This document shows positions 33,114 to 60,225 of a stretch of 64,000 nt of DNA, piece after piece (the first letter of the stretch is position 1; each line of letters opens with the position of its first letter). Made by a program: the position numbers and the translations under genes. A model generated the notes under the pieces. The model worked only from the letters and a program-made list of their open reading frames with translations, had not been told where the DNA came from and made no database searches. Source of the DNA: Antedon mediterranea (lineage: Eukaryota; Animalia; Echinodermata); the NCBI RefSeq assembly GCF_964355755.1, contig NC_092672.1, positions 11,842,001-11,906,000 of the forward strand, read 5' to 3'.

Positions 33114-33305
33114 TGCTTTTTTCATTTTTTTTAAACCAGTAACATAATTTAATATTTGAAATGGCACATACGAATAATACTTTAAATACACCAATCATAC
33201 TAAATCTACAGAAAATGTAGTATAATGAATTTGATTCGGATTCATTCTGGAAAATATATATTATTGTGAATCAAGATTTTACACAAGAGAAAAGCTGTAT
33301 TTGAG

Positions 33306-34796
33306 ATGATATTACATCCAACATTTTTGTTTATTGCATTTTTACTGCTCAACAAAACGTTTTCCTTTCCTGAATTTATAAAACAGCCAGAGGATGAAAG
33401 CCGAGCCGAAGGAGAACTTACGTATTTTAATTGTATGGTGAAAAATCTTGATGAAGGTGAATATGTTTCATGGCTTCATAATGGTCGGAAAATAAGTAGA
33501 AAAGATATAATTTCTGATACAAGTATATTTGATCGTTATTCAATAGAGTTTGATGACGTATTTAGCACTTATAATTTGCGAATTAAGAATATACAGAGGC
33601 GAGATGTAGGAATATACGCATGCGCAGTTTATGATGATTCTGACAATGTGGTTGCAGAGACTAAATCTTCTAACTTCACAGTACTTCAAATTCCTGAGAA
33701 ATATTACCCATTGTGCTCTAATATAAAAACAAGTTATAAACTTAACCAAAACATTGTTGTTGTATGTTCATCAGAAAAGACCTATCCTCTGCCTAGTTTA
33801 ATTTGGAAGCGAGACGGTATCAATATTGTATCACAATTGGAGGAGAAAACATCACGAGATATATACAAAGTTTCCTATTCAGTTAATGCAAAACAATCCG
33901 ACAACAGAGCTATATTTATATGTGAATTAACAACATCAGCAAACCCATCTATAAGAAGGAATTGTTCTGTTGGACCTATCAACGTTTTATATCCTCCGGT
34001 TGTTAGTATTAAACAGACAAGTGATATCGTTCTTGGCGACGAAGCCATCTTTATTTGTTATAGCGATGCAAATCCACAAGAGAATATTTTTCAATGGAGT
34101 TTTGACCCACCTATCAACAAAAACATGTATTTCTTAGAAAATGAATTCATTCTAAGAATTACAAATGTAGTAATCAGTTTAAATGATACAATTGTTACCT
34201 GCGAAGTAGAAAATTCTGTTGGAAGGAGCTATAGCAAATTAAACATCAATATAAAAAGAAAAACCTCATTTGATAGTAGCGTTAATGATAACGAGGGAAA
34301 TGGAAAAGGCGGATCAAAGAAAAATACAAATGGGTTTAAAACAGAAGGTACAGAGGACGACGGTGCGACGATAGGAAACAAAGAAAAATCAAAGAATCAA
34401 AATAGTAATCAAAATACAATACAGACAAGATCCCAAGACAAGAAAAACAGCACCGATGTATCAATATCATTAGTTATAACCATTGCAGTTGTATGTATTA
34501 TAGTAATTCTAGGATTGGCATTGATACCTGTTGGTTACATGAGATATACACGAAGACAACCTAGTGACACCATCAGTAGAGGAAGACCTGTGTCAATACC
34601 TGATGTATACTTTGAACCTAGAGATCACATAGATCCTATGCTACCACAGTTAGGCTTAGCAGCTCCTTGGATGAGGACAGTAGGAGTTCAAGTTCCTGGT
34701 GAATGTGAATATGATGTAACGTATAATACACAAGTTATGCCACAGTTACGACAGGTTTACTACTCACAAAGAATGTACCCGCCATCATCTTTGTAA
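33306..34796 (+). CDS. Array copy 2 (subfamily B, MILHPTF type)
   Basis: 496 aa intact ORF with the same domain layout and constant tail. Confidence 0.93.
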   Translation: MILHPTFLFIAFLLLNKTFSFPEFIKQPEDESRAEGELTYFNCMVKNLDEGEYVSWLHNGRKISRKDIISDTSIFDRYSIEFDDVFSTYNLRIKNIQRRDVGIYACAVYDDSDNVVAETKSSNFTVLQIPEKYYPLCSNIKTSYKLNQNIVVVCSSEKTYPLPSLIWKRDGINIVSQLEEKTSRDIYKVSYSVNAKQSDNRAIFICELTTSANPSIRRNCSVGPINVLYPPVVSIKQTSDIVLGDEAIFICYSDANPQENIFQWSFDPPINKNMYFLENEFILRITNVVISLNDTIVTCEVENSVGRSYSKLNINIKRKTSFDSSVNDNEGNGKGGSKKNTNGFKTEGTEDDGATIGNKEKSKNQNSNQNTIQTRSQDKKNSTDVSISLVITIAVVCIIVILGLALIPVGYMRYTRRQPSDTISRGRPVSIPDVYFEPRDHIDPMLPQLGLAAPWMRTVGVQVPGECEYDVTYNTQVMPQLRQVYYSQRMYPPSSL

Positions 34797-34985
34797 TGAT
34801 TTTTCCAATTTTCTAAAACCAGTAACACAATTTAATATTTGAAATGGCACATATGAATAATAGTTTAAATACACCAATCAAACTAAATCTACAGAAACGG
34901 TAACACAATGAAATTGTTTTGGATTCATTTTGGAAAATATACGTTGTGAATCAAGATAATACACACGAGAAAAGCTGTATTTGAG

Positions 34986-36476
34986 ATGATATTATATCCA
35001 ACGTTTTGGTTTATTGCATTGTTACTGCTCAACAAAACGTTTTCGTTTCCTGAATTTATAAAACAGCCAGAGGATGAAAGCCGAGCCGAAGGAAAATTTA
35101 CGTTTTTTATTTGTATGGTGACAAATCTTGGGGAAGGTGAATATGTTTCATGGCTGCATAGTGGTCGGAAAATAAGTAGAAATGATATAATTACTGATAC
35201 TAGGGTATTTGATCGTTATTCAGTAGATTTTGATCCAGTATTTAGTACTTACAATTTGCGAATTAAGAATATACAGAGGCAAGATGTAGGAATATACACA
35301 TGCGCAGTTTATGATGATTCTGGCGACATAGTGGCACAGAGTAAAGCTTCTAACTTTACAGTTCTTCAAATTCCTGAGAAATTTTACCCATTATGCTCTA
35401 ATATAAAAACAAGTTATACACTTAACAAAAAAATTGTTGTTGTATGTTCATCAGAAAAGACCTATCCTCTGCCTAGTTTAATTTGGAAGCGTGACGATAT
35501 CAATATTGTATCACCATTGGAGAAAGAATCATCACGAGATACATACAAAGTGTCCTATTCAGTTATTGCAAAACAATCCGACAACAGAGCTATATTTATA
35601 TGTGAATTAACAACATCAGCAAACCCATCTATAGGAAGGAATTGTTCTGTTGGACCTATCAACGTTTTATATCCTCCTGTTGTTCGTATTAAACAGACAA
35701 GTGATATCGTTCTTGGCGACGAAGCCATCTTTATTTGTTATAGCGATGCAAATCCACAAGAGAATATTTTTAGATGGAGATTTGACCCACCTATCAACAA
35801 AAACATGTATTTCTTAGAAAATGAATTCATTCTGAGAATTAGAAATGTAGTACTCAGTTTAAATGATACAATTGTTATCTGCGAAGTAAAAAATTCTGTT
35901 GGAAGTAGCTATAGCAAATTAAACATCAATATAAAAAGAAAAACCTTATTTGATAGTAGCGTTAATGAAAACGAGGGAAATGGAAAAGGTGGATCAAAGA
36001 AAAATACAAATGGGTTTAAAACAGAAGGTACAGAGGACGACGGTGCGACGATAGGAAACAAAGAAAAATCAAAGAATCAAAATAGTAATCAAGATACAAT
36101 ACACACAAGATCCCAAGACAAGGAAAACAGCACCGATGTATCAATATCATTAGTTATAACCATTGCAGTGGTATGTATTATAGTAATTCTAGGTTTGGCA
36201 CTGATACCTGTTGGTTACATGAGATATACACGAAGACAACCTAGTGACACCATCAATAGAGGAAGACCTGTGTCAATACCTGATGTATACTTTGAACCTA
36301 GAGATCACATAGATCCTATGCTACCACAGTTAGGCTTAGCAGCTCCATGGATGAGGACAGTAGGAGTTCAAGTTCCTGGTGAATGTGAATATGATGTAAC
36401 GTATAATACACAAGTTATGCCACAGTTACGACAAGTTTACTACTCACAAAGAATGTACCCACCATCATCTCTATAA
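34986..36476 (+). CDS. Array copy 3 (subfamily B, MILYPTF type)
   Basis: 496 aa intact ORF, collinear with copies 2, 4, 5. Confidence 0.93.
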   Translation: MILYPTFWFIALLLLNKTFSFPEFIKQPEDESRAEGKFTFFICMVTNLGEGEYVSWLHSGRKISRNDIITDTRVFDRYSVDFDPVFSTYNLRIKNIQRQDVGIYTCAVYDDSGDIVAQSKASNFTVLQIPEKFYPLCSNIKTSYTLNKKIVVVCSSEKTYPLPSLIWKRDDINIVSPLEKESSRDTYKVSYSVIAKQSDNRAIFICELTTSANPSIGRNCSVGPINVLYPPVVRIKQTSDIVLGDEAIFICYSDANPQENIFRWRFDPPINKNMYFLENEFILRIRNVVLSLNDTIVICEVKNSVGSSYSKLNINIKRKTLFDSSVNENEGNGKGGSKKNTNGFKTEGTEDDGATIGNKEKSKNQNSNQDTIHTRSQDKENSTDVSISLVITIAVVCIIVILGLALIPVGYMRYTRRQPSDTINRGRPVSIPDVYFEPRDHIDPMLPQLGLAAPWMRTVGVQVPGECEYDVTYNTQVMPQLRQVYYSQRMYPPSSL

Positions 36477-36666
36477 TGATTTTTCTAAATTTTCTAAAAC
36501 CAGTAACACAATTTAATATTTGAAATGGCACATATGAATAATAGTTTAAATACACCAATCATACTAAATCTGCAGAAACTGTAACACAATGAAATTGTTT
36601 CGGATTCATTCTGGAAAATATACATTGTGAATCAAGATATTACACAAAAGAAAAGCTGTATTTGAG

Positions 36667-38157
36667 ATGATATTACATCCAACATTTTTGTTTATTGCAT
36701 TGTTACTGCTCAACAAAACGTTTTCGTTTCCTGAATTTATAAAACAGCCAGAGGATGAAAGCCGAGCCGAAGGAGAACTTACGTTTTTTAATTGTATGGT
36801 GAAAAATCTTGGTGATGGTGAATATGTTTCATGGATGCAAAATGGTCGTAAAATAAGTAGTAATGATTTAATTGTTGATGTAAGTGTATTTGAGCGATAT
36901 TCAATAGAATTTAATGACGTGTTTAGTATTTACAATTTGCGAATTCAGAATATACAGAGGCGAGATGTAGGAATATACACATGCGCAGTTTATGATGATT
37001 CTGGCGACATAGTGGCACAGAGTAAAGCTTCTAATTTCACAGTACTTGAAATTCCTGAGAAATATTACCCATTATGCTCTAATATAAAAACAAGTTATAA
37101 ACTTAACCAAAACATTGTTGTTGTATGTTCATCAGAAAAAACCTATCCTCTGCCTAGTTTAATTTGGAAGCGAGACGATATCAATATTGTATCACAATTG
37201 GAGGAGGAAACATCACGAGATATATACAAAGTTTCCTATTCAGTTATTGCAAAACAATCCGACAACAGAGCTATATTTATATGTGAATTAACAACATCAG
37301 CAAACCCATCTATAAGAAGGAATTGTTCTGTTGGACCTATCAACGTTTTATATCCTCCTGTTGTTAGTATAAAACAGACAAGTGATATCGTTCTTGGCGA
37401 CGAAGCCATCTTTATTTGTTATAGCGATGCAAATCCACAAGCGAATATTTTTAAATGGAGTTTTGACCCACCTATCAACAAAAACATGTATTTCTTAGAA
37501 AATGAATTCATTCTAAGAATTACAAATGTAGTAATCAGTTTAAATGATACAATTGTTACCTGCGAAGTAGAAAATTCTGTTGGAAGGAGCTATAGTAAAT
37601 TAAACATCAATATAAAAAGAAAAACCTCATTTGATAGTAGCGTTAATGATAACGAGGGAAATGGAAAAGGCGGATCAAAGAAAAATACAAATGGGTTTAA
37701 AACAGAAGGTAAAGAGGACGACGGTGCGACGATAGGAAACAAAGAAAAATCAAAGAATCAAAATAGTAATCAAAATACAATACAGACAAGATCCCAAGAC
37801 AAGAAAAACAGCACCGATGTATCAATATCATTAGTTATAACCATTGCAGTTGTATGTATTATAGTAATTCTAGGGTTGGCATTGCTACCTGTTGGTTACA
37901 TGAGATATACACGTAGACAACCCAGCGACACTATCAGTAGAGGAAGACCTGTGTCAATACCTGATGTATACTTTGAACCTAGAGATCACATAGATCCTAT
38001 GCTACCACAGTTAGGCTTAGCAGTTCCATGGATGAGGACAGTAGGAGTTCAAGTTCCTGGTGAATGTGAATATGATGTAACATATAATACACACGTTATG
38101 CCACAGTTACGACAAGTTTACTACTCACAAAGAATGTACCCACCATCTTCTTTGTAA
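36667..38157 (+). CDS. Array copy 4 (subfamily B, MILHPTF type)
   Basis: 496 aa intact ORF, closest to copy 2. Confidence 0.93.
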   Translation: MILHPTFLFIALLLLNKTFSFPEFIKQPEDESRAEGELTFFNCMVKNLGDGEYVSWMQNGRKISSNDLIVDVSVFERYSIEFNDVFSIYNLRIQNIQRRDVGIYTCAVYDDSGDIVAQSKASNFTVLEIPEKYYPLCSNIKTSYKLNQNIVVVCSSEKTYPLPSLIWKRDDINIVSQLEEETSRDIYKVSYSVIAKQSDNRAIFICELTTSANPSIRRNCSVGPINVLYPPVVSIKQTSDIVLGDEAIFICYSDANPQANIFKWSFDPPINKNMYFLENEFILRITNVVISLNDTIVTCEVENSVGRSYSKLNINIKRKTSFDSSVNDNEGNGKGGSKKNTNGFKTEGKEDDGATIGNKEKSKNQNSNQNTIQTRSQDKKNSTDVSISLVITIAVVCIIVILGLALLPVGYMRYTRRQPSDTISRGRPVSIPDVYFEPRDHIDPMLPQLGLAVPWMRTVGVQVPGECEYDVTYNTHVMPQLRQVYYSQRMYPPSSL

Positions 38158-38347
38158 TGATTTTTCCAATTTTTCTAAAACCAGTAACACAATTTAATAT
38201 TTGAAATGGCACATATGAATAATAGTTTAAATACACCAATCAAACTGAATCTACAGAAACCGTAACACAATGAAATTGTTTTGGATTCATGTTGGAAAAT
38301 ATACGTTGTGAATCAAGATAATACACACAAGAAAAGCTGTTTTTGAG

Positions 38348-39838
38348 ATGATATTATATCCAACGTTTTGGTTTATTGCATTGTTACTGCTCAACAACAC
38401 GTTTTCATTTCCTGAATTTATAAAACAGCCAGAGGATGAAAGCCGAGCCGAAGGAAAATTTACGTATTTTAATTGTATGGTGACAAATCTTGGTGAAGAT
38501 GAATATGTTTCATGGCTGCATAGTGGTCGGAAAATAAGTACAAATCATTTAATTACTGATACAAGTTTAATAGATCGTTATTCAATATACTTTGATCCAG
38601 TATTTAGCACTTACAATTTGCAAATTAAAAATATACAGAGGCAAGATGTAGGAATATACGCATGCGCAGTTTATGATGATTCTGGCGACATAGTGGCAAA
38701 GAGTAAAGCTTCTAACTTTACAGTACTTGAAATTCCTGAGAAATATTACCCATTATGCTCAAATATAAAAACAAGTTATAAACTTAACCAAAATATTGTT
38801 GTTGTATGTTCATCAGAAAAGACCTATCCTCTGCCTAGTTTAATTTGGAAGCGTGACGATATCAATATTGTATCACCATTGGAAGAAGAAATATCAAAAA
38901 ATACATACAAAGTGTCTTATTCAGTTATTGCAAAAAAATCCGACAACGGAGCTATATTTATATGTGAATTAACAACATCAGCAAACCCATCTATAAGAAG
39001 GAATTGTTCTGTTGGACCTATCAACGTTTTATATCCTCCTGTTGTTCGTATTAAACAGACAAGTGATATTGTTCTTGGCGACGAAGCCATCTTTATTTGT
39101 TATAGCGATGCAAATCCACAAGAGAATATTTTTAAATGGAGTTTTGAACCACCTATCAACAAAAAGATGTATTTCTTAGAAAATAAATTCATTCTGAGAA
39201 TTAGAAATGTAGTACTCAGTTTAAATGATACAATTGTTACCTGCGAAGTAAATAATTCTGTTGGAAGTAGCTATAGTAAATTAAACATCAATATAATCAG
39301 AAAAACCTCATTTGATAGTAACGTTAATACCAACAAGGGAAATGGAAAAGGCGGATCAAACAAAGATACAAATGGGTTTAAAACAGAAGGTACAAAGGAC
39401 GATGGTGCGATGATAGGAAATAAAGAAAAATCAAAGAATCAAAATAGTAATCAAGATACAACACAGACACGATCCCAAGACAAGGAAAACAGCACCGATG
39501 TATCAATATCATTAGTTATAACCATTGCAGTGGTATGTATTATAGTAATTCTAGGGTTGGCATTGATACCTGTTGGTTACATGAGATACACACGAAGACA
39601 ATCTAGTGACACCATCAGTAGAGGAAGACCTGTGTCAATACCTGATGTATACTTTGAACCTAGAGATCATATAGATCCTATGCTACCACAGTTAGGCTTA
39701 GCAGCTCCATGGATGAGGACAGTAGGAGTTCAAGTTCCTGGTGAATGTGAATATGATGTAACATATAATACACAAGTGATGCCACAATCACGACATGTTT
39801 ACTATTCACAGCGTATGTATCCAACAGTGTCACTCTAA
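38348..39838 (+). CDS. Array copy 5 (subfamily B, MILYPTF type; C-terminus PTVSL)
   Basis: 496 aa intact ORF, closest to copy 3. Confidence 0.93.
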   Translation: MILYPTFWFIALLLLNNTFSFPEFIKQPEDESRAEGKFTYFNCMVTNLGEDEYVSWLHSGRKISTNHLITDTSLIDRYSIYFDPVFSTYNLQIKNIQRQDVGIYACAVYDDSGDIVAKSKASNFTVLEIPEKYYPLCSNIKTSYKLNQNIVVVCSSEKTYPLPSLIWKRDDINIVSPLEEEISKNTYKVSYSVIAKKSDNGAIFICELTTSANPSIRRNCSVGPINVLYPPVVRIKQTSDIVLGDEAIFICYSDANPQENIFKWSFEPPINKKMYFLENKFILRIRNVVLSLNDTIVTCEVNNSVGSSYSKLNINIIRKTSFDSNVNTNKGNGKGGSNKDTNGFKTEGTKDDGAMIGNKEKSKNQNSNQDTTQTRSQDKENSTDVSISLVITIAVVCIIVILGLALIPVGYMRYTRRQSSDTISRGRPVSIPDVYFEPRDHIDPMLPQLGLAAPWMRTVGVQVPGECEYDVTYNTQVMPQSRHVYYSQRMYPTVSL

Positions 39839-40068
39839 CTAGTCTAATCGTCAATGTAAAGTATTTATTTAAACTGGTAACATATAATTAAACCAGTTGT
39901 TCCATGTTACGGAAAAAAGGAAATTAGATCATAAGTAGAAAACTGAATCAATATGACAGATACAATGTAGACACTAAGATATCAGTCCATCCATGAGTTT
40001 TGACAAACTATTTCTTTGAATTAACAGTTGTTATGAACACCTTTATTTAAGCTTTATTATCCTTTAAA

Positions 40069-41520
40069 ATGAAGTTTCGAAGCTACATGTTGATTGTTAT
40101 TCCATTTTTGTACGAAGCATCTTCATTCACTGGATTCTTAAAACAGCCGTCAGACGAGAGCGTAGCTGAAGGTGAGCTGACATTTTTTAGTTGTATTGTA
40201 CAGAATCTTGATGGTGGTGAATACGTTTCCTGGTTGTATAATGCTCAGAAGATAAGCAAAAATGATATAATAACTAATAAAATGCTTACTACTCGCTACT
40301 CAATAGACTTTGATCCTGTATTTAAAAAATACAATTTGCAAATATATGACATCCATCGAAGCGATGAAGGACAATACACTTGTGCTGTTTATGATAAAAA
40401 TGAGATTATAGTAAAACAATCAAAAACAGCAAACTTTACCGTACTGCAAACTCCAGGACTAAATTATCCAATATGTACACTGAAAAAACAAACTTACATT
40501 GTTGGAGAAGCTGTTGTACTTGTCTGTATATCAGAAGTAACAAAGCCGTCAGCAACGTTATCATGGGTGAAATATGGTGACATTATTAAGGAAAAGGTTG
40601 TCAATGAAATGGTGAACGGAAATCATCAAACATCTTTTTCATTTACTGCAAGAAAGTCTGATAATAGAGCAATATTTATATGTGAATTGACAACACCAGC
40701 TAACCCATCGATTAGGCGAAATTGTTCAAGTGGGCCCTTCAACATTGTATACCCTCCTATAGTTCATATTCAACAAACAAGTGACGTCATTTTGGGCAAT
40801 GAAGGCATCTTTATTTGTTACAGTGATGCGAATCCACAGGAAACTACATTTGAATGGAGCTTTGATCCACCCATTGAAGAAAATATGTATTTGTTGGAAA
40901 GTGAAAGAATTTTAAGGATTGAAAATACAATAAGTAGTTTAAATGGGACAAGTGTCATATGTAAAGTTACTAATTCCATTGGAAGTGGATCTAGTAAATT
41001 AATATTGAAAATTAGAACGGAAGAAACTATTAATAATGTAGTTGAAACAAACAATGGAAAAGAAACCGACACGTCCGAAAAACCTCATGAAAGAAATAAG
41101 TCTAAGTCGAAGAATCAAAATTTAAACAACAATCAGCAGTTATTGCAGACTAACTCGCCAAACAACAACAGTACTGATGATATTTCAATTTCGTTGGTTG
41201 TCATAATTGCATTGGTATGCATTATAGTAATTCTAGGTTTGGCTATGATACCTGTTGGTTACATGAAATATACACGAAGACAACCCAGTGACACCATCAG
41301 TAGAGGAAGGCCTGTGTCATTACCTGATGTATATTTTGAACCTAGAGATCACATAGATCCTATGCTACCACAGTTAGGCTTAGCAGCTCCTTGGATGAAG
41401 ACAGTAGGAGTTCAAGTTCCTGGTGAATGTGAATATGATGTAACGTATAATACACAAGTTATGCCACAATTACGACAGGTGTACTATACACAACGGATGT
41501 ATCCTGCAGCTCCACTCTGA
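40069..41520 (+). CDS. Array copy 6 (singleton; C-terminus PAAPL)
   Basis: 483 aa intact ORF with the same Cys/Trp skeleton and tail. Confidence 0.93.
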   Translation: MKFRSYMLIVIPFLYEASSFTGFLKQPSDESVAEGELTFFSCIVQNLDGGEYVSWLYNAQKISKNDIITNKMLTTRYSIDFDPVFKKYNLQIYDIHRSDEGQYTCAVYDKNEIIVKQSKTANFTVLQTPGLNYPICTLKKQTYIVGEAVVLVCISEVTKPSATLSWVKYGDIIKEKVVNEMVNGNHQTSFSFTARKSDNRAIFICELTTPANPSIRRNCSSGPFNIVYPPIVHIQQTSDVILGNEGIFICYSDANPQETTFEWSFDPPIEENMYLLESERILRIENTISSLNGTSVICKVTNSIGSGSSKLILKIRTEETINNVVETNNGKETDTSEKPHERNKSKSKNQNLNNNQQLLQTNSPNNNSTDDISISLVVIIALVCIIVILGLAMIPVGYMKYTRRQPSDTISRGRPVSLPDVYFEPRDHIDPMLPQLGLAAPWMKTVGVQVPGECEYDVTYNTQVMPQLRQVYYTQRMYPAAPL

Positions 41521-41762
41521 ATACTCAATAACTAGCATTATACAGAAACCTGTAACACAATAACAAACTCATCAAGACATCTTGCAAAAAATAGTAATGT
41601 TCACCGTTGAATATTAAATGATAGTGGTTTTAGATGTTTACAAACTAAATATGTCGCTGAAATAAACAACCGAACTATGCTTTCCGATGTAAGGAAGACA
41701 ATCATTTGGAAAATCGTTTAAAGATTTAAACATACGTTAACATTATATTCTTGCAAATAATT

Positions 41763-43214
41763 ATGTTTTCAAAGTTATATTGTACTGTTTTGTTTATTCT
41801 CACATTATTTTTTCATGAAGCGATTTTATTTTCTGGATTTGTAAGTCAACCATCTGATGACAGTCGTGGAGAAGGTGAACGTGTATATTTTAACTGTATT
41901 GTTGAAACTCTCGACACCAACGAATACGTTTCTTGGTTACATAATAGACGTATAATAAGTAATAATGACGTCATTGTTCTGGACCAATATATGGATCGGT
42001 ACACTATAGATTTTGATTCAGACTTTGGAAAATACAATTTGAAAATCAGAAATATTCAGCGTATAGATAAAGGACAATATGAATGTGTTATATATGATAG
42101 CAATGAGAACGTTGTCAGTAAATCTTGGATTGCAAATTTAACAGTTTTAGAAATACCCCAAGGGTCTTACCCAATTTGTCAAAACACTAAAATGAGTTAT
42201 ATCGTTGGACAGCGCGTGCTTCTTGCATGTATATCTGAAACAATTTCTCCTCTTGCTCTTTTGAAATGGAAACAAAATGATATTGATATTTTGACAGGAA
42301 TAACCGAAGACACATCTAGTGGTAATTATAAAGTATCTTATTCATTTATTGCAAAACAATCAAACAATCGAGAAATATTTACATGCGAATTAACAACACC
42401 AGCAAATCCATCTATCAAAAGGAATTGTTCAATTGGACCCATCAACATTCTGTATGCTCCTGTTGTTCGTATTGAACAAACACGTGACGTCATTCTTGGC
42501 AATGAAGCGATCTTTCTTTGTTATAGTGATGCAAATCCACAAGAAACTACATTTGAATGGAGTTTTGACCCAGCAATTGATGAAACTTTGTATTTATTGG
42601 AAAATGAAATAATTTTGAGAATTAAAAATACAGTACGTAGTTTTAATGGGACAAGTGTTATATGTAAAGTTACTAATTCCATTGGAAGTGGATCTAATAA
42701 ATTGATAGTGAACGTAAAAACTAAAGAGTCCATACATATTGCTAATGGAAATAGTGTCAAAGACACAACACACTCTAAATATGACACACCAATCAAACAA
42801 AATAAAGATGCAAACAGCAATCAACAAATATTGCTTACTAAATCACCAACAAAGAACAACAGTAATAATACAGATATTTCAATATCTCTAGTTGTTATAA
42901 TTGCAGTGGTATGTATAATAGTGATTCTAGGGTTAGCATTGATACCCGTTGGTTACATGAGATATACACGGAGACAACCTAGTGACACCATAAGTAGAGG
43001 AAGACCTGTGTCAATACCTGATGTATACTTTGAACCTAGAGATCACATAGATCCTATGCTACCACAGTTAGGATTAGCAGCTCCATGGATGAGGACAGTA
43101 GGAGTTCAAGTTCCTGGTGAATGTGAATATGATGCCACATATAATACACAAGTTATGGCACAGCCACGACAGGTATACTATACACAACGGATGTACCCGG
43201 CATCTTCGTTGTAA
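41763..43214 (+). CDS. Array copy 7 (singleton; domains 2-3 resemble subfamily D)
   Basis: The ORF track starts at TTG 41751. The first in-frame ATG is 41763 (MFSKLYCTVLFILTLFF signal peptide). Confidence 0.9.
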   Translation: MFSKLYCTVLFILTLFFHEAILFSGFVSQPSDDSRGEGERVYFNCIVETLDTNEYVSWLHNRRIISNNDVIVLDQYMDRYTIDFDSDFGKYNLKIRNIQRIDKGQYECVIYDSNENVVSKSWIANLTVLEIPQGSYPICQNTKMSYIVGQRVLLACISETISPLALLKWKQNDIDILTGITEDTSSGNYKVSYSFIAKQSNNREIFTCELTTPANPSIKRNCSIGPINILYAPVVRIEQTRDVILGNEAIFLCYSDANPQETTFEWSFDPAIDETLYLLENEIILRIKNTVRSFNGTSVICKVTNSIGSGSNKLIVNVKTKESIHIANGNSVKDTTHSKYDTPIKQNKDANSNQQILLTKSPTKNNSNNTDISISLVVIIAVVCIIVILGLALIPVGYMRYTRRQPSDTISRGRPVSIPDVYFEPRDHIDPMLPQLGLAAPWMRTVGVQVPGECEYDATYNTQVMAQPRQVYYTQRMYPASSL

Positions 43215-51708: not shown

Positions 51709-51926
51709 TGATTGCTGTTTCAGAACAAATAACACAACTTTTTAAATGATTTGCCATGTTGCTATACCATTGTAAATAGATCATAAATATTCATGTTATA
51801 ATTATGCACACGCAGAATAAGTAATTTATATCGTGATCAATACATTGTATGCTGGTATGTTCGACTTCTTTTTTTCTCAAGTAAGTTGTAACATTTATGT
51901 AATTATATACTTTAAACAATGACATC

Positions 51927-53390
51927 ATGCTAGGTATTGGAACAACTGTTGGTACTTGGGTATTTTTTTACATGTTTATGTTGCAGAGAACTTATTCCTT
52001 CTCAGGATTCATAAAAGAGCCATTAGATGAGAATCAAGCCGAAGGTGATTTAACATATTTTACTTGTATTGTACGAGAACTTGATGAAACTCAATATATT
52101 TCTTGGTTACATAATGGACGCAAGATAAGTCAAAATGGCGAAATTATTATAAATACATACGCACATTATTCAATTGATTATAATTCAGTATTTGGTACAT
52201 GCACCTTAAGAATTCAAAACGTACAGCGGAGAGATAAAGGAGGATATACATGTACCGTTTATGATAGCAACGATCAAATTGTTGAGAAATCAAGGACAGC
52301 TAATTTTACAGTTTCAGAAATTCCTCAACAACAATATCCGATTTGTTCTTCAACTAAAAGGAGTTATCGCGTTGGCCAACACGTTGTTCTTAACTGTATT
52401 TCGGAAAAGACCACACCCCCAGCCTTGTTAAGATGGGTACATAATATTGGAGGTAGTGAATCAGGATTAAAAGAATCGTTAACTGGTAATTACGAAAACT
52501 CTTATTCATTTATTGCAAAACAATCTGACAATAGAGCAATATTTACATGTGAATTAACAACACCAGCAAATCCGTCATTATATAGTAATTGTACAATTGG
52601 TCCTCTTGATGTTTTATATGCTCCTACTGTTCGAATTGAACAAACACGTGACGTCATTCTTGGTAATGAAGCCATCTTTATTTGTTATAGTGATGCAAAT
52701 CCACAGGAATCTTCGTTTAAATGGAGCTTTGTTCCACCTCTTACTGAAAACATGTTTGTGTTGGAAAATGACATAATTTTGAGAATTAAAAATACAGTAA
52801 GTAGTTTAAATGGGACAAGTGTCATATGTGCAGTTACTAATTCGATTGGAAGTGGATCTAGTAAATTGATAATAAACGTAAAATCGAAAGAATCTACTAA
52901 TAATGTAGTTGAAACAAACAATGGAAAAGAAACGAAAAAGTTTGAAAAACCAAATGAAAGAAACAAAAATAAATCGAAAAATCAAAACTCTAACAGCAAT
53001 CAACCACTATTGCAGACTCGAACGCCAAACAACAACAACAGCAGTAATGATATTTCAATTTCTCTTGTTGTGATAATTGCATTGGTGTGTATCATAGTAA
53101 TTCTAGGATTGGCTATGATACCTGTTGGTTACATGAGATATACTCGTAGACAACCCAGTGACACCATCAGTAGAGGAAGACCTGTGTCAATACCTGATGT
53201 ATACTTTGAACCTAGAGATCACATAGATCCTATGCTACCACAGTTAGGCTTAGCAGCGCCATGGATGAGGACAGTAGGAGTTCAAGTTCCTGGTGAATGT
53301 GAATATGATGCCACATATAATACACAAGTTATGCCACAGGCACGACATGTATACTATACACAACGGATGTACCCGGCGTCTTCGTTGTAA
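51927..53390 (+). CDS. Array copy 13 (subfamily C)
   Basis: 487 aa intact ORF; N-terminus nearly identical to copy 12, stalk like copy 10. Confidence 0.93.
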   Translation: MLGIGTTVGTWVFFYMFMLQRTYSFSGFIKEPLDENQAEGDLTYFTCIVRELDETQYISWLHNGRKISQNGEIIINTYAHYSIDYNSVFGTCTLRIQNVQRRDKGGYTCTVYDSNDQIVEKSRTANFTVSEIPQQQYPICSSTKRSYRVGQHVVLNCISEKTTPPALLRWVHNIGGSESGLKESLTGNYENSYSFIAKQSDNRAIFTCELTTPANPSLYSNCTIGPLDVLYAPTVRIEQTRDVILGNEAIFICYSDANPQESSFKWSFVPPLTENMFVLENDIILRIKNTVSSLNGTSVICAVTNSIGSGSSKLIINVKSKESTNNVVETNNGKETKKFEKPNERNKNKSKNQNSNSNQPLLQTRTPNNNNSSNDISISLVVIIALVCIIVILGLAMIPVGYMRYTRRQPSDTISRGRPVSIPDVYFEPRDHIDPMLPQLGLAAPWMRTVGVQVPGECEYDATYNTQVMPQARHVYYTQRMYPASSL

Positions 53391-53602
53391 TGATTGCTGT
53401 TTCAGAACAACTAACACAACTTTTTAAATGATTTGCCATGTTGCAATACCATTGTAAATAGATCATAAATATTCATGTTATAATTATACATACAGAATAT
53501 GTAATGTATATCGCGACCAATACACACTATGCTGGTATATCTGACTTGTTTTCTGAAGTATGTTGTAACATTTGGATAATAATTATACTTCGAAATGACA
53601 TC

Positions 53603-55072
53603 ATGTACACCTTAGGTATTGGAAACACTTTTGGCACTTGGATATTTTTATATATGTTGATGTTGCAGAGAACTTATTCCTTCTCAGGATTCATAAAAGA
53701 GCCACTAGATGAGAATAAAGCTGAGGGTGATTTGACATATTTTACTTGTATTGTACGAGAAATTGATGAAACTCAATATGTTTCTTGGTTACACAATGGA
53801 CGCAAGATAAGTAAAAATGGCGAAATTATCATCAATACATACGCACATTATTCAATTGATTATGATTCAACATTTTTTGTTAAATGTAACTTACAAATTC
53901 AAAATATAAAACGAAGCGATAAAGGGGAATATGTATGTACAGTTTACGATAGCAACGATCGGATTGTGGACAAATCAAGGACAGCTAATTTTACAGTTTT
54001 AGAAATTCCTCAACAACAATATCCGATTTGTTCTTCGACTAAAACGAGTTATCATGTTGGCCAGAATGTTGTTCTTAACTGTATTTCGGAAAACACCAAT
54101 CCTCTACCTATTCTTACATGGACACAAAATATTGTTGGAGGCATTGAATTAGGATTAAAAGAATCGTTAACTGGTAATTATGAAAAGTCTTATTCATTTA
54201 TTGCAAAACAATCTGACAACAGAGCAATATTTACATGTGAATTAACAACATCAGCAAATCCGTCTATAGAAAGGAATTGTACAATTGGTCCTCTTGATGT
54301 TTTATATCCCCCTATTGTTCGTATCCAACAAACACGTGATGTCATTATTGGTAATGAAGCCATCTTTATTTGTTATAGTGATGCAAATCCTCAAGAAACT
54401 ACGTTTGAATGGAACTTTGATCCACCTATTAGTGAAAATATGTTTGTGTTGGAAAATGATATAATTTTGAGAATTAAAAATACTGTAAGTAGTTTAAATG
54501 GGACAAGTGTCATATGTAAAGTTACTAATTCCATTGGAAGTGGATCTAGTAAATTGATAGTGAACGTAAAATCTAAAGAATCTATTAATAATGTAGTTGA
54601 AACGAACAATGGAAAAGAAACGAACAAGCCTGAAAAACCAAATCAAGGAAACAAAAATAAATCGAACAATCAAAATTCTAACAGCAATCAACAACTATTG
54701 AAGACTAGATCGCCAAACAACAGCAGTACAGATATTTCAATTTCGTTGGTTGTGATAATTGCATTAGTGTGTATCATAGTAATTCTAGGATTGGCTATGA
54801 TACCTGTTGGTTACATGAAATATACACGTAGACAACCCAGTGACACCATCAGTAGAGGAAGACCTGTGTCAATACCTGATGTATACTTTGAACCTAGAGA
54901 TCACATAGATCCTATGCTACCACAGTTAGGCTTAGCAGCTCCATGGATGAGGACAGTAGGAGTTCAAGTTCCTGGTGAATGTGAATATGATGTCACATAT
55001 AATACACAAGTTATGCCACAGTTACGACAGGTATACTATACACAACGGATGTACCCAGCTTCTTCGTTGTAA
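53603..55072 (+). CDS. Array copy 14 (subfamily C)
   Basis: The ORF track starts at an upstream ATG 53504. The homologous start (MYTLGIG, gacatcATG) is 53603. Confidence 0.88.
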   Translation: MYTLGIGNTFGTWIFLYMLMLQRTYSFSGFIKEPLDENKAEGDLTYFTCIVREIDETQYVSWLHNGRKISKNGEIIINTYAHYSIDYDSTFFVKCNLQIQNIKRSDKGEYVCTVYDSNDRIVDKSRTANFTVLEIPQQQYPICSSTKTSYHVGQNVVLNCISENTNPLPILTWTQNIVGGIELGLKESLTGNYEKSYSFIAKQSDNRAIFTCELTTSANPSIERNCTIGPLDVLYPPIVRIQQTRDVIIGNEAIFICYSDANPQETTFEWNFDPPISENMFVLENDIILRIKNTVSSLNGTSVICKVTNSIGSGSSKLIVNVKSKESINNVVETNNGKETNKPEKPNQGNKNKSNNQNSNSNQQLLKTRSPNNSSTDISISLVVIIALVCIIVILGLAMIPVGYMKYTRRQPSDTISRGRPVSIPDVYFEPRDHIDPMLPQLGLAAPWMRTVGVQVPGECEYDVTYNTQVMPQLRQVYYTQRMYPASSL

Positions 55073-55260: not shown

Positions 55261-56715
55261 ATGTACGTTTTAGGAATTGGAAAGTCTTTTGGAATATGGG
55301 TAGTTTTGTATTTATTGATGTTTCAGAGAACACATTCTTTATCTGGATTCAATACAGAGCCTGGGGATGAAAATCAGGCAGAAGGTGATTTAACCTATTT
55401 TACTTGTATTGTACGAGGACTCGATGACACTCACTATGTTTCTTGGTTGCATAATGGACGCAAGATTAGTAAAAATTATGACATTATATCAGATATCAAT
55501 AGATATTCAATCGAGTTTGATTCAAATTCTAGAAAATACAACTTTGAAATTGAGAATACTCAAAGGCAAGATAAAGGAGAATACGTATGCGCTGTTTATG
55601 ATAGCAGTGACAGAATTGTGGTCAAATCTAGAACAGCTAATTTAACAGTTTCAGAAATTCCACAAGAACCTTACCCTATTTGTCATAACGCTAAGCTAAG
55701 CTATTCCGCTGGACAAAGTGTGCTTCTTTCATGTATATCTGAAAAGACATCTCCTCTTGCTCATTTAAAATGGAAACAAAATAATTTGGATGTTACGACA
55801 GGATTAAGTGAAGACACATCTAGTGGTAATTATAAAGTATCGTATTCATTTACTGCAAGAAAATCCCATAATAGAGCAATATTTATATGTGAATTAACAA
55901 CATCCGTTAACCCAACTATTAGAAGGAATTGTTCTATTGGACCTATCAACGTTTTATATGCCCCTGTTGTTCGAATTGAGCAAACAAGTGACGTCATACT
56001 TGGTACTGAAGCCATCTTCATTTGTTATAGTGATGCAAATCCACAAGAAACTACATATCAATGGAGTTTTGATCCACCTATAGACGAAACTATGTATTAT
56101 TTAGAAAATGAATTTATTTTGAGAATTAAAAAAACAGTAAATAGTTTAAATGGCATACAAGTTATCTGCAAAGTAACGAATTCTATTGGAAGTGAGTCAG
56201 ACAAATTAATAATCAAAATAAAGACGAGAGGAGACATAACAAATAATGAAGATGAAGAATATGACAAAACGGTTGATGAAAATAAAGATATATCTGATAA
56301 CAATAAGGTAAATAAAAATCAACAATTGTTGCAAACAAGATCACCAACTATAAATAACAGTCATAGTAATTCAGATATTTCAATATCTCAAGTTGTCATC
56401 ATTGCAGTGGTATGTATTATATTAATTCTAGGTTTGGCAATGATACCTGTTGGTTACATTAAATATACACGACGACAACCCAGTGACACCATCAGTAGAG
56501 GAAGACCTGTGTCAATACCTGATGTATACTTTGAACCTAGAGATCACATAGATCCTATGCTACCGCAGTTAGGCTTAGCAGCTCCATGGATGAGGACAGT
56601 AGGAGTTCAAGTTCCTGGTGAATGTGAATATGATGCCACATATAATACACAAGTGATGCCACAATCACGACAGGTGTACTATACACAACGGATGTACCCG
56701 GCATCTTCGTTGTAA
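55261..56715 (+). CDS. Array copy 15 (subfamily D, MYVLGIG type)
   Basis: 484 aa intact ORF; acidic stalk; SQVV at the TM start. Confidence 0.93.
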   Translation: MYVLGIGKSFGIWVVLYLLMFQRTHSLSGFNTEPGDENQAEGDLTYFTCIVRGLDDTHYVSWLHNGRKISKNYDIISDINRYSIEFDSNSRKYNFEIENTQRQDKGEYVCAVYDSSDRIVVKSRTANLTVSEIPQEPYPICHNAKLSYSAGQSVLLSCISEKTSPLAHLKWKQNNLDVTTGLSEDTSSGNYKVSYSFTARKSHNRAIFICELTTSVNPTIRRNCSIGPINVLYAPVVRIEQTSDVILGTEAIFICYSDANPQETTYQWSFDPPIDETMYYLENEFILRIKKTVNSLNGIQVICKVTNSIGSESDKLIIKIKTRGDITNNEDEEYDKTVDENKDISDNNKVNKNQQLLQTRSPTINNSHSNSDISISQVVIIAVVCIILILGLAMIPVGYIKYTRRQPSDTISRGRPVSIPDVYFEPRDHIDPMLPQLGLAAPWMRTVGVQVPGECEYDATYNTQVMPQSRQVYYTQRMYPASSL

Positions 56716-56903
56716 TGATTGCTGTTTTAGAACTGATAACACAACATTTAAACTGATTTGCCATACATTTTTAATATAATTAATATTCATATTTTGTTTG
56801 TGCATATACAATACTGATTGCAAAATATACACTTCCTATTGCAGACTTTTGTTTAACCAATATTTTGTAAGGTTTCCGTAACATACTTTTAAACAATGAC
56901 ATT

Positions 56904-58358
56904 ATGTACGTTTTGGGAATTGGAAAGTCTTTTGGAACATGGATAGTCTTGTATTTATTGATGTTTCAGGAAACACATACTTTATCTGGATTTAATACAG
57001 AGCCCGGGGATGTAAATCAAGCAGAAGGTGATTTGACCTATTTCAACTGTATCGTGCGAGGACTTGATGACACTCACTATGTTTCTTGGTTGCATAATGG
57101 ACGCAAGATTAGTAAAAATTATGACATTATATCAGATAACAATCGATATGCAATCGAGTTTGATTCTAATTCTAGAAAATACAACTTTGAAATTGAGAAT
57201 ACTCAAAGAAAAGATAAAGGAGAATACGTATGCGCTGTTTATGATAGCAGTGACAACATTGTGGTCAAATCTAGAACAGCTAATTTAACAGTTTTAGAAA
57301 TTCCTCAAGAAAATTATCCTATTTGTCATAACGCTAAGCAAAGCTATTCCGCTGGACAAAGTGTGCTTCTTTCATGTATATCTGAAAAGACATCTCCTCT
57401 TGCTCATTTAAAATGGAAACACAATAGTATTGATGTTACGACAGGATTAAGTGAAGACACATCTAGTGGTAATTACAAAGTATCGTATTCATTTATTGCA
57501 AGACAATCCAATAATAGAGCAGTATTTATATGTGAATTAACAACATCCGTTAACCCAACTATAAGAAGGAATTGTTCTATTGGACCTATCAATGTTTTAT
57601 ATGCTCCTGTTGTTCGTATTGAACAAACGAGTGACGTCATACTTGGTAATGAAGCCATCTTTATTTGCTATAGTGATGCAAATCCACAAGAAGCTACGTA
57701 TCAATGGAGTTTTGATCCACCTATAGACGAAACTATGTATTATTTAGAAAATGAATTTATTATGAGAATTAAAAAAACAACAAATAGTTTAAATGGTATA
57801 CAAGTTATCTGCAAAGTAACGAATTCTATTGGAAGTGAGTCAAACAAATTAATAATCAAAGTAAAGACGAGAGGAGTCATAGCAGACAATGAAGATGTAG
57901 ATTATGACAAAGCAATCGATGAAAATAAAGATATATCTGATAGCAAAAAGGTAAATAAAAATCAACAAATGTTGCAAACAAAATCACCAACTATAAACAA
58001 CAGTAATACGGATTCAGATATTTCAATATCTCTAGTTGTCATAATTGCATTAGTATGTATTATAGTAATTCTAGGGTTGGCATTGATACCTGTTGGTTAC
58101 ATGAGATATACACGGAGACAACCTAATGACACCATAAGTAGAGGAAGACCTGTGTCAATACCTGATGTATACTTTGAACCTAGAGATCACATAGATCCTA
58201 TGTTACCACAGTTAGGCTTAGCAGCTCCATGGATGAGGACAGTAGGAGTTCAAGTTCCTGGTGAATGTGAATATGATGCCACATATAATACACAAGTTAT
58301 GCCACAGCCACGACATGTATACTATACACAACGGATGTACCCAGCTTCATCGTTGTAA
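56904..58358 (+). CDS. Array copy 16 (subfamily D)
   Basis: 484 aa intact ORF. Confidence 0.93.
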   Translation: MYVLGIGKSFGTWIVLYLLMFQETHTLSGFNTEPGDVNQAEGDLTYFNCIVRGLDDTHYVSWLHNGRKISKNYDIISDNNRYAIEFDSNSRKYNFEIENTQRKDKGEYVCAVYDSSDNIVVKSRTANLTVLEIPQENYPICHNAKQSYSAGQSVLLSCISEKTSPLAHLKWKHNSIDVTTGLSEDTSSGNYKVSYSFIARQSNNRAVFICELTTSVNPTIRRNCSIGPINVLYAPVVRIEQTSDVILGNEAIFICYSDANPQEATYQWSFDPPIDETMYYLENEFIMRIKKTTNSLNGIQVICKVTNSIGSESNKLIIKVKTRGVIADNEDVDYDKAIDENKDISDSKKVNKNQQMLQTKSPTINNSNTDSDISISLVVIIALVCIIVILGLALIPVGYMRYTRRQPNDTISRGRPVSIPDVYFEPRDHIDPMLPQLGLAAPWMRTVGVQVPGECEYDATYNTQVMPQPRHVYYTQRMYPASSL

Positions 58359-58564
58359 TGATTGCTGTTGTAGAACTAATAACACAACATTTAAACTGAT
58401 TTGCCATACCTTTTTAATACAATCATTAATATTCATATTATGTTTATGCATATGCAAAACTTATCAGGTATACTGTATTGCGAACTATACACTGTATGTT
58501 GCTCGACTTCTGTTTTACGAATATGGCGTAAGGTTTCCATAATTCACTTTTAAACAATGACATT

Positions 58565-60022
58565 ATGTACGTTTTAGGCATTGGAAAGTCTTTTGGAACA
58601 TGGGTAGTTTTGTATTTTCTGATGTTTCAAAGAACATATTCTTTATCTGGATTCATTAAAGAGCCTGCGGATGAAAATCAAGCAGAAGGTGATTTAACCT
58701 ATTTTACTTGCATTGTACGTGGACTCGATGAAACTCAATATGTTTCTTGGTTGCATAATGGACGCAAGATTAGTAACAACTATGACATTTTATCAGATAC
58801 TAATCGATATTCAATCGATATTGATTCAAATTCTAGAAAATATAACTTTGAAATTGAGAATACACAAAGGCAAGATAAAGGAGAATACGTATGCGCTGTT
58901 TATGATAGCAGGGACAGCATTGTGGTCAAATCTAGAACAGCTAATTTAACAGTTTTAGAAATTCCTCAAGAACCTTACCCTCTTTGTCATAACGCTAAGC
59001 TAAGCTATTCCGCTGGACAAAGTGTGCTTCTTTCATGTATATCTGAAAAGACATCTCCTCTTGCCCATTTAAAATGGAAACAAAATGATATTGATGTTAC
59101 CACAGGATTAAGTGAAGACACATCTAGTGGTAATTACAAAGTATCGTATTCATTTATTGCAAGACAATCTAATAATAGAGCAGTATTTATATGTGAATTA
59201 ACAACATCCGTAAACCCAACTATAAGAAGGAATTGTTCTATTGGACCTATCAATGTTTTATATGTTCCTGTTGTTCGTATTGAACAAACGAGTGACGTCA
59301 TACTTGGTACTGAAGCCATCTTCATTTGCTATAGTGATGCAAATCCACAAGAAGCTACGTATCAATGGAGTTTTGATCCACCTATAGACGAAACTATGTA
59401 TTATTTAGAAAATGAGTTTATTTTGAGAATTAAAAGAACAGTAAATAGTTTAAATGGTATACATGTTATCTGCAAAGTAACGAATTCTATTGGAAGTGAG
59501 TCGAACAAATTAATAATCAAAGTAAAAACGAGAGGAGACATAGCAGACAATGAAGATGTAGATTATGACAAAACGGTTGATGAAAATAAAGATATATCTG
59601 ATAACAAAAAGGTAAACAAAAATCAACAATTGCTGCAAACACGATCACCAACTATAAATAACAGTCATAATAATTCAGATATTTCAATATCTCAAGTTGT
59701 CATCATTGCAGTGGTATGTATTATAGTAATTCTAGGATTGGCATTGATACCTGTTGGTTACATTAAATACACACGACGACAACCCAGTGACACCATCAGT
59801 AGAGGAAGACCTGTGTCAATACCTGATGTATACTTTGAACCTAGAGATCATATAGATCCTATGTTACCACAGATAGGCTTAGCAGCTCCATGGATGAGGA
59901 CAGTAGGAGTTCAAGTTCCTGGTGAATGTGAATATGATGCCACATATAATACACAAGTTATGCCACAGCCACGACAGGTATACTATACACAACGGATGTA
60001 CCCAGCTTCTTCGTTGCAATGA
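58565..60022 (+). CDS. Array copy 17 (subfamily D; C-terminus SSLQ)
   Basis: 485 aa intact ORF; TAA-to-CAA change followed by TGA. Confidence 0.93.
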   Translation: MYVLGIGKSFGTWVVLYFLMFQRTYSLSGFIKEPADENQAEGDLTYFTCIVRGLDETQYVSWLHNGRKISNNYDILSDTNRYSIDIDSNSRKYNFEIENTQRQDKGEYVCAVYDSRDSIVVKSRTANLTVLEIPQEPYPLCHNAKLSYSAGQSVLLSCISEKTSPLAHLKWKQNDIDVTTGLSEDTSSGNYKVSYSFIARQSNNRAVFICELTTSVNPTIRRNCSIGPINVLYVPVVRIEQTSDVILGTEAIFICYSDANPQEATYQWSFDPPIDETMYYLENEFILRIKRTVNSLNGIHVICKVTNSIGSESNKLIIKVKTRGDIADNEDVDYDKTVDENKDISDNKKVNKNQQLLQTRSPTINNSHNNSDISISQVVIIAVVCIIVILGLALIPVGYIKYTRRQPSDTISRGRPVSIPDVYFEPRDHIDPMLPQIGLAAPWMRTVGVQVPGECEYDATYNTQVMPQPRQVYYTQRMYPASSLQ

Positions 60023-60225
60023 TTGCTGTTTCAGAACTAATAACACAACATTTAAACTGATTTGCCATACCTTCTTAATACAATCATTAATATTCATAGT
60101 ATGTTTATGCATATGCAAAACTTATCAGGTATACTGTATTGCGAACTATACACTGTATGTTGCTCGACTTCTGTTTTACGAATATGGCGTAAGGTTTCCA
60201 TAATATACTTTTAAACAATGACATT

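What the first reader, a model, noticed from the sequence alone, without database searches (positions are those of the whole stretch)
33114..60225. Operon-like packing: ~200-nt spacers, mostly without polyA signals, suggest a polycistronic transcription unit
Seen: stop-to-ATG gaps are 192, 189, 190, 190, 230, 242, 332, 183, 210, 209, 213, 218, 212, 188, 188, 206 and 203 nt. Length is held constant although spacer sequences fall into divergent classes. By eye, AATAAA occurs only in the spacer after copy 6 (ATTAAA after copies 5-7). Only copy 1 has a long upstream region, and AATAAA follows copy 18. Established: 200 nt is very little for 3' UTR + polyA site + promoter + 5' UTR, and is comparable to intercistronic gaps in nematode and tunicate operons. 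Inference: one long pre-mRNA resolved by trans-splicing, by alternative cis-splicing of one leader exon to each cassette, or by internal initiation.
Basis: partly seen in the sequence, partly recalled or inferred. Interest (0 to 1): 0.88.

Follow-up and report, generated by a model that had tools for sequence, protein, structure and literature searches.

The report
Feather star's tightly chained receptor genes
In a feather star, 18 intron-free cell-surface receptor genes sit head to tail only about 200 bases apart, with convincing end-of-message signals almost only after the last one, so each gene likely has its own start but is likely transcribed on through its neighbours, much as in insect smell- and taste-receptor clusters.

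Summary
The anatomy is real: 18 intact, intronless three-Ig transmembrane receptor ORFs (31680-61680) of a crinoid, with 17 gaps of 183-332 nt exactly as listed; AATAAA occurs in 1 of 17. But the gaps are duplicates of only five classes, so poly(A) signals are not statistically depleted (1 of 5 classes, p=0.55); the oddity is the distance, against a mean sea urchin 3' UTR near 1.8 kb. Four AATAAA with GU-rich downstream elements follow copy 18. Contigs of one run guessed to be RNA pass through whole spacers into the next ORF, with no leader or splice joint at spacers 8-17. No spacer has an outstanding splice acceptor, 16 of 17 hold three or more upstream ATGs, and SL trans-splicing was not found in sea urchin. 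New here: a 16-nt element in all 17 spacers, 170-217 nt before each ATG, and initiator-like motifs near -61 in two classes. Best reading (0.4): each copy has its own start and reads through towards a shared 3' end, with only the first ORF translated. Main rival (0.3): compact independent genes with variant poly(A) signals. One-promoter operon readings total about 0.25. No transcript-level proof.

The parts
31680..33113 (+). Copy 1, most divergent ORF (477 aa); three Ig domains, TM, conserved tail
   Evidence: ectodomain 39% identical to copy 6
33306..39838 (+). Copies 2-5 (496 aa each; 33306-34796, 34986-36476, 36667-38157, 38348-39838)
40069..45025 (+). Copies 6-8 (40069-41520, 41763-43214, 43547-45025)
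45209..55072 (+). Copies 9-14 (45209-46675, 46886-48358, 48568-50037, 50251-51708, 51927-53390, 53603-55072)
55261..61680 (+). Copies 15-18 (55261-56715, 56904-58358, 58565-60022, 60226-61680)
33114..38347 (+). Class A spacers sp1-4 (33114-33305, 34797-34985, 36477-36666, 38158-38347; 189-192 nt)
39839..40068 (+). Class B spacer sp5 (230 nt, one ATTAAA); covered from 39840 into copy 6 by one X1 contig
41521..41762 (+). Class C spacer sp6 (242 nt); the only spacer AATAAA, at 41661, without a GU-rich downstream element
43215..43546 (+). Class D spacer sp7 (332 nt); composite with two copies of the junction element; wholly inside one X1 contig (43187-43861)
45026..60225 (+). Class E spacers sp8-17 (183-218 nt); no AATAAA/ATTAAA; variant AATACA with GU-rich downstream in 5 of 10; out-of-frame ATG at -8 in 10 of 10
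33133..33148 (+). First copy of the 16-nt junction element (RAAC-N-N-R-TAACA-Y-AA; one copy has C at the R); others at 34816, 36497, 38178, 39871, 41546, 43345, 45039, 46686, 48373, 50052, 51723, 53405, 55087, 56730, 58373, 60034
   Evidence: 170-217 nt before the next ATG in 17 of 17
33242..33247 (+). Initiator-like TCATTY at -64 from copy 2; also 34925, 36606, 41702 (-61) and TCAGTC at 39982 (-87)
   Evidence: the initiator consensus is recalled
32991..33032 (+). Tail core (14 codons, shown for copy 1) with no synonymous change in any of the 18 copies
61681..63300 (+). Inferred shared long 3' UTR with AATAAA at 61966, 62111, 62361, 63226, each with a GU-rich downstream stretch
   Evidence: X1 contigs at 61647-61854 and 62599-62933
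3914..5317 (+). Stand-alone, intronless distant paralog (467 aa, 30-33% identical); control for a normally spaced family member

Best explanation
Eighteen intact, intronless Ig-receptor ORFs lie 183-332 nt apart with complete-looking poly(A) sites almost only after the last; each copy likely has its own start site about 60 nt before its ATG, and its transcript likely runs on through the downstream copies to the shared 3' end, so that probably only the first ORF of each RNA is translated. Shown: the packing, intact ORFs under purifying selection, a shared junction element in all spacers, terminal poly(A)-like sites, and contigs that cross spacers. Inferred: the array grew by unequal crossing-over and conversion in the near-identical tails, copying a unit that lacks the long 3' UTR; the junction element (with sequence in the upstream tail) acts as the proximal promoter of the next copy; the RNAs form a nested, 3'-coterminal set (some may end earlier at weak sites); promoter choice then decides which ectodomain a cell displays on a constant signalling tail.
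For: All 18 ORFs are open and pN/pS is below 1 in 18 of 18 domain-by-group values covering 14 of the 18 copies (0.00-0.76), so internal ORFs must be translated. Gaps are about a tenth of the mean sea urchin 3' UTR (52% of 3.5 kb; PMC3460201 passages). AATAAA after copy 18: 4 of 4 with GU score 7-13; inside the array 1 of 29 reaches 7; upstream background 5 of 41 (my own post hoc score, and 28 of the 29 lie in A-rich coding sequence). Contigs of run X1 (RNA is the tool's guess) cover sp5 from its second base into copy 6, all of sp7 into copy 8, and the 3' parts of sp6, sp10, sp14 and sp16 into the next ORF, bridging the ATTAAA of sp5 and sp7 and the site just downstream of the AATAAA of sp6 (tables cut, 8 X1 rows shown in each). 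Own starts: 16-nt element in 17 of 17 spacers at -170 to -217; held-out classes A, C, D beat all 239 background windows, B is matched by 8 and E by 3-16 of 239; initiator-like TCATTY followed by GGAAAAT at -61 to -64 in otherwise unalignable classes A and C, downstream of the last upstream ATG in those four spacers. 16 of 17 spacers hold three or more upstream ATGs, which disfavours scanning across a whole spacer. Precedents: Drosophila three-receptor polycistronic read-through, ant OR arrays (PMC12393541 passages), Gr64 (PMC9302837 passages).
Against: No start or end of any RNA was observed; contigs are unstranded and would merge overlapping UTRs of independent genes, and X1 is not on record as RNA. 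Initiator-like motifs occur upstream of only 5 of 18 copies and none in class E; no TATA box recurs at a fixed place. The element is absent before copy 1 (59 of 239 background windows score as well) and a weak hit lies after copy 18 (5 of 239), so it need not be a promoter element. Variant AATACA with a GU-rich downstream stretch exists in 5 of 10 class E spacers. CpG observed/expected is lower across the array (0.61-0.84 in 16 of 16 bins from 32001) than upstream (0.87 or more in 13 of 16), with no consistent rise at the spacers, which fits one 5' promoter better. Upstream copies would carry 3' UTRs of up to 30 kb, a likely target of decay (established knowledge).
Confidence: 0.4

Rival explanations
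1. Compact but independent genes: each copy has its own start and ends at a variant poly(A) signal in its spacer (or in the next ORF), so short 3' UTRs abut or overlap the next 5' UTR; short gaps are simply inherited from the duplicated unit.
For: No class-level depletion of poly(A) hexamers (p=0.55); every spacer has variant hexamers, AATACA with GU score 7-13 in sp8, 9, 10, 12, 13; overlapping UTRs would also give spacer-crossing contigs; shared motifs suggest a start per copy; the Anneissia relatives are separate NCBI proteins.
Against: The variant hexamer is not kept in sp11 or sp14-17; cleavage there would fall about 55 nt before the next ATG; the stand-alone paralog has no canonical hexamer within 302 nt and X1 contigs reach 1.25 kb past copy 18, so this family seems to use long 3' UTRs where it can.
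Confidence: 0.3
2. One promoter upstream of copy 1 makes a 31-kb, 18-cistron RNA whose internal ORFs are reached by internal initiation, reinitiation, or cleavage at the junction element.
For: CpG-rich region only upstream of copy 1 (o/e 1.27 over 700 nt); junction element confined to internal junctions; spacer-crossing contigs; out-of-frame ATG kept at -8 in 10 of 10 class E spacers.
Against: Spacers are unstructured (z -1.2 to +2.3 in 6 of 17 folded), no Rfam match in the window, many upstream ATGs; reinitiation after a 480-codon ORF is inefficient in animals (established knowledge).
Confidence: 0.12
3. A non-coding leader exon upstream of copy 1 is cis-spliced to an acceptor in one spacer, removing all upstream ORFs as an intron.
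For: A fair donor 152 nt before copy 1 (matched by 11% of background windows) and an AG 11-16 nt after the stop in sp7-17 that is missing after copy 18; one X1 contig has 29 unlaid letters just before sp5, letters not shown.
Against: Best acceptor per spacer is matched by 9-89% of 238 background windows (rough recalled matrix). For sp8-17, 2 of 234 X1 contigs were only partly laid, both near 62.6 kb, and X1 had no joint. The 29 letters fit a converted tail allele, given 30-letter contig overlaps (inference). Spacers 1-7 could not be checked: repeat rows crowded the tables.
Confidence: 0.07
4. A spliced-leader operon of nematode or tunicate type.
For: Co-directional genes about 200 nt apart; TTTCAG 12-15 nt after the stop in 4 of 10 class E spacers (sp11, 12, 13, 17) and in sp9; a short leader could be clipped from contigs (inference).
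Against: No evidence of SL trans-splicing in sea urchin embryos (PMC3460201 passages); acceptors not above background; no canonical poly(A) signal ahead of them, as the stop lies only about 15 nt upstream; the one paper holding both 'crinoid' and 'trans-splicing' is on mitochondrial genomes (listing).
Confidence: 0.06

Closest known systems
Insect chemoreceptor read-through arrays (Drosophila three-IR array and Gr64a-f; ant and bee OR arrays; Anopheles polycistronic ORs)
   Same: Tandem paralogous receptors, transcription running across genes, expected translation of the promoter-proximal gene (PMC12393541, PMC9302837, PMC13575207 passages).
   Different: Here single-pass Ig receptors in a deuterostome, fully intronless, 18 copies about 200 nt apart. 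In ants each gene is cleaved and polyadenylated; in the fly IR array splicing removes downstream first exons; neither is seen here.
Clustered protocadherins and chelicerate sDscam
   Same: Variable ectodomains in tandem with a constant cytoplasmic tail, isoform chosen by promoter (PMC4835542 abstract and section titles).
   Different: There the constant part is a shared exon set joined by splicing; here every copy encodes its own tail and stop, kept alike by selection and probably conversion.
SL trans-spliced operons of nematodes and tunicates
   Same: Very short co-directional gaps.
   Different: No strong acceptor before each ATG, no poly(A) signal per gene, members are paralogs, and SL was not found in sea urchin.
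Nectin/CADM (SynCAM) and Kirre/SYG-1 three-Ig adhesion receptors
   Same: Signal peptide, three Ig domains, TM, C-terminal S/T-x-L end; best solved match CADM4 (E 2.4e-11), then Robo2, DCC, nectin-2; NCBI names relatives 'cell adhesion molecule 2-like'.
   Different: Only generic Ig similarity; the TM-tail matched only crinoid-named proteins (7 of 8 looked up, 1 unnamed); orthology not tested.

Membership tests
SL trans-spliced operon | Closely spaced co-directional genes | tested here: met
   17 gaps of 183-332 nt
SL trans-spliced operon | Strong unpaired 3' splice acceptor ahead of each internal ATG | tested here: not met
   best acceptors matched by 9-89% of 238 background windows; generic recalled matrix
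SL trans-spliced operon | Poly(A) signal after each upstream gene | tested here: inconclusive
   AATAAA in 1 of 17, ATTAAA in 3 of 17; variant hexamers in all
SL trans-spliced operon | Common leader on the mRNAs and an SL RNA gene | not testable with these tools
   contigs only, no genome held; none found in sea urchin
Read-through receptor array (insect OR/IR/Gr type) | Tandem paralogous receptors, all functional | tested here: met
   18 open ORFs, pN/pS below 1 in 14 copies tested
Read-through receptor array (insect OR/IR/Gr type) | RNA continuous across intergenic regions | tested here: inconclusive
   X1 contigs cross sp5 and sp7, but RNA status is a guess and contigs show no single molecule
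Read-through receptor array (insect OR/IR/Gr type) | A promoter for each gene | tested here: inconclusive
   shared element in 17 of 17 spacers, initiator-like motif before 5 of 18 copies
Read-through receptor array (insect OR/IR/Gr type) | Only the promoter-proximal ORF is translated; staircase expression in single cells | not testable with these tools
   needs single-cell and ribosome data
Clustered protocadherin / sDscam locus | Variable cassettes spliced to shared constant exons | tested here: not met
   each copy has its own tail and stop; no X1 joint in 44100-64000
Clustered protocadherin / sDscam locus | Variable ectodomain with constant intracellular part | tested here: met
   amino-acid p-distance 0.39 in Ig1 and Ig2 against 0.07 in the tail
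Nectin/CADM family | Three Ig domains, TM, PDZ-type C-terminus | tested here: met
   16 of 18 end in S/P-L (x-S/V/A-x-L), copies 9 and 17 carry an extra Q; motif name recalled
Nectin/CADM family | Orthology to vertebrate nectins or CADMs | not tested
   no tree with vertebrate members was built

The most novel reading that the evidence does not exclude
A first echinoderm operon: one promoter drives a 31-kb RNA with 18 full-length receptor cistrons, and the 16-nt element found at every internal junction directs how each internal cistron becomes translatable (internal entry, cleavage, or an unknown leader), giving crinoid cells a protocadherin-like identity code chosen after transcription.
Probability: 0.2. 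Interest if true: 0.92.

Novelty: new variant of a known kind. Interest (0 to 1): 0.62.

Why it matters
If the best reading holds, crinoids reached a third solution to making many ectodomains on one constant tail: not shared constant exons (protocadherins, sDscam) but whole intronless genes that share one 3' end. It would extend read-through-based receptor choice from insect chemoreceptors to a deuterostome cell-recognition family. With no introns and unique 200-nt spacers, the locus is an unusually clean test of how a cell picks one gene from an array. If one promoter serves all 18, it would be an operon in a phylum where SL trans-splicing has not been found.

Tried and rejected
No genome was held for the window, so no SL RNA search or genome-wide gap distribution. 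No RNA holder on record was listed among 5 runs of 2 studies; X1 is only guessed to be RNA. X1 contig depths (about 5 at copy 1, 7-38 at copies 5-18, 50-100 in parts of the region after copy 18) neither rise steadily, as a nested set might, nor can they rank parts, by the tool's statement; not used either way. The X1 loose end at 62584 has no match in the window. DNA of relatives could not be had: 0 confirmed loci in viral contigs (12 pattern hits) and metagenome contigs (203 pattern hits); a search for shorter tail homologues found none among 7 candidates. So conversion and nucleotide-level constraint in the tail core could not be separated. Rejected: poly(A) depletion as a statistic; fusion of ORFs by stop read-through (3-9 in-frame stops in every spacer); structured or known ncRNA in spacers; in-register tail-to-tail splicing (the CAG-GT site is missing in 5 of 18 copies); positive selection at domain level (all pN/pS below 1). 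In one search the sp7 training site was mis-picked; one search is the corrected run. Earlier findings: none in 2 look-ups. PMC4528329 passages added nothing.
Full report
WHAT IS THERE. The window holds 18 ORFs of 477-496 aa between 31680 and 61680 on +, plus one distant paralog at 3914-5317. Each ORF is intronless and encodes a signal peptide, three Ig domains, a polar stalk, a transmembrane helix and a tail of about 90 aa. A search of 1.84 billion representatives with the TM and tail gave 10 hits: 2 are the window's own, and 7 of the other 8 carry crinoid names. The organism is therefore a feather star and the family looks crinoid-specific at this sensitivity.

THE OBSERVATION. The 17 are not independent. 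They form five classes (sp1-4, sp5, sp6, sp7, sp8-17), alike within and at random level between. At class level poly(A) hexamers are not depleted (1 of 5 against 35 of 120 background windows, p=0.55). The stand-alone paralog has its first ATTAAA 303 nt and its first AATAAA 1142 nt after the stop. What is odd is the distance. In the sea urchin the 3' UTR is 52% of a 3.5-kb mean mRNA and genes lie 23.5 kb apart (PMC3460201, passages).

ALL COPIES ARE USED. No ORF is broken, and pN/pS is below 1 in 18 of 18 domain-by-group values for 14 of the 18 copies. Internal ORFs must therefore be translated, and any model must put each at the head of an mRNA or give it internal entry. Ectodomains differ by 39% of residues in Ig1 and Ig2, tails by 7%; fourfold sites differ by 0.42 in Ig1 against 0.15 in the tail, and a 14-codon core has no synonymous change in 18 copies. 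In unrooted FastTree trees of all 18 copies, the paralog and the 7 Anneissia proteins, the Anneissia tails fall apart from this array's tails (support 0.99, with the paralog among them), as concerted evolution predicts. I infer that the array grew by crossing-over in the tails, which copies the short gap.

THE 3' END. The four AATAAA after copy 18 all have GU-rich downstream stretches (score 7-13), against 1 of 29 inside the array and 5 of 41 upstream. The score is my own and post hoc, and coding sequence is A-rich. Against this, AATACA with a GU-rich stretch sits about 80 nt before the next ATG in 5 of 10 class E spacers, so weak per-gene sites remain possible.

SEQUENCING RUNS. Five runs of two studies hold the stretch; X1 is guessed to be RNA. 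All are contigs, which cannot show starts, ends, strand or level. X1 contigs cover 39840-40951 (sp5 into copy 6), 41632-41936, 43187-43861 (all of sp7 into copy 8), and 48419-48698, 55104-55344, 58390-58603, 61647-61854 and 62599-62933. Only 8 X1 rows were shown per call (12486 and 505 rows hidden). For 44100-64000, which holds 10 of 17 spacers, 2 of 234 X1 contigs were partly laid, both near 62.6 kb, and X1 had no joint. For spacers 1-7 the tables were filled by repeats (143 of 1063 X1 contigs partly laid, 6 rows shown). One X1 contig has 29 unlaid letters before 39840. They were not shown; a converted tail allele fits the 30-letter overlap seen at 43187, but a leader is not excluded.

HOW INTERNAL COPIES COULD BE REACHED. 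With a generic, recalled matrix the best acceptor in each spacer is matched by 9-89% of 238 background windows. An AG 11-16 nt after the stop is kept in sp7-17 and lost after copy 18, but ten of these eleven spacers are one class. Sixteen of 17 spacers hold three or more upstream ATGs. No SL trans-splicing was found in sea urchin embryos. The spacers do share one thing: a 16-nt element in 17 of 17, 170-217 nt before the next ATG and 11-33 nt after the stop except in composite sp7. Held out by class, A, C and D beat all 239 background windows, B is matched by 8 and E by 3-16. It is absent before copy 1 and weak after copy 18. Classes A and C also share an initiator-like TCATTY and GGAAAAT at -61 to -64, past the last upstream ATG. 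These favour a start per copy. Against that, such motifs precede only 5 of 18 copies, and CpG is low across the whole array and high only upstream of copy 1.

VERDICT. Best reading, 0.4: a start for each copy with read-through towards a shared 3' end and translation of the first ORF only. Independent compact genes with variant poly(A) signals, 0.3. One promoter with internal entry 0.12, a cis-spliced leader 0.07, an SL operon 0.06. The anatomy is shown; every transcript-level step is inferred.

COMPARISON. It most likely works like insect chemoreceptor read-through arrays (PMC12393541, PMC9302837 and PMC13575207, passages), and its output resembles clustered protocadherins and sDscam (PMC4835542, abstract and section titles). 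It fails their shared-constant-exon test and fails the acceptor test for SL operons. I found no description of this array in five searches (listings only), and the Anneissia genome paper has no main-text occurrence of operon, immunoglobulin, cell adhesion or trans-splicing (PMC7351957, passages; supplements not seen and may bear on this). The library lacks most subscription papers. Interest 0.62: a real and unusual architecture with a direct test, but an ordinary reading keeps 0.3.

Noticed in passing
window 3914-5317 (+): Stand-alone intronless paralog, 30-33% identical, sharing the tail motifs; its 68% identical Anneissia counterpart has the same longest-contig length as the Anneissia array proteins, suggesting kept linkage.
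   Followed up: partly
window 32991-33032 and the same place in each copy: Fourteen codons without a synonymous change in 18 copies; they include a fair splice donor 98-101 nt before each ORF end. Conversion centre or nucleotide-level element.
   Followed up: partly
window 43215-43546: Spacer 7 is a composite: its first 35 nt resemble class E and from +131 it shares 21 of 21 nt with spacer 6, so it holds the junction element twice. Spacers 2-4 also hold it twice, 78 nt apart.
   Followed up: partly
spacers 8-17, 8 nt before each ATG: An out-of-frame ATG opening a 4-16 codon overlapping uORF is kept in 10 of 10 class E spacers.
   Followed up: no
window about 32000: CpG observed/expected drops from 1.15-1.34 (26-32 kb) to 0.61-0.84 for all 16 bins of the array and beyond; tails are lowest, 0.37.
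   Followed up: partly
window about 27500-29600: High-copy repeat: contig depth up to 290,000 in X2 against about 45 in unique DNA, with an 18-nt tandem unit at 27535-27615.
   Followed up: no
window 39811-39840: One X1 contig carries 29 letters that do not fit just before spacer 5; copy 5 has an unusual tail end in the window.
   Followed up: partly
copies 9 and 17 (ends 46675, 60022): Both end in an extra Gln after the usual C-terminal Leu, which would mask a PDZ-type end (motif recalled).
   Followed up: no
protein P0015: One Anneissia relative ends TQDFT instead of the usual last 20 residues, hinting at a splice or frameshift in the tail.
   Followed up: no
proteins P0021-P0028: More distant family members (34-40% identical in TM and tail) exist in two crinoid species, some on other contigs.
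   Followed up: partly
window 62060-62106 and 62250-62294: A 47-nt direct repeat (81% identical) in the region after copy 18.
   Followed up: no
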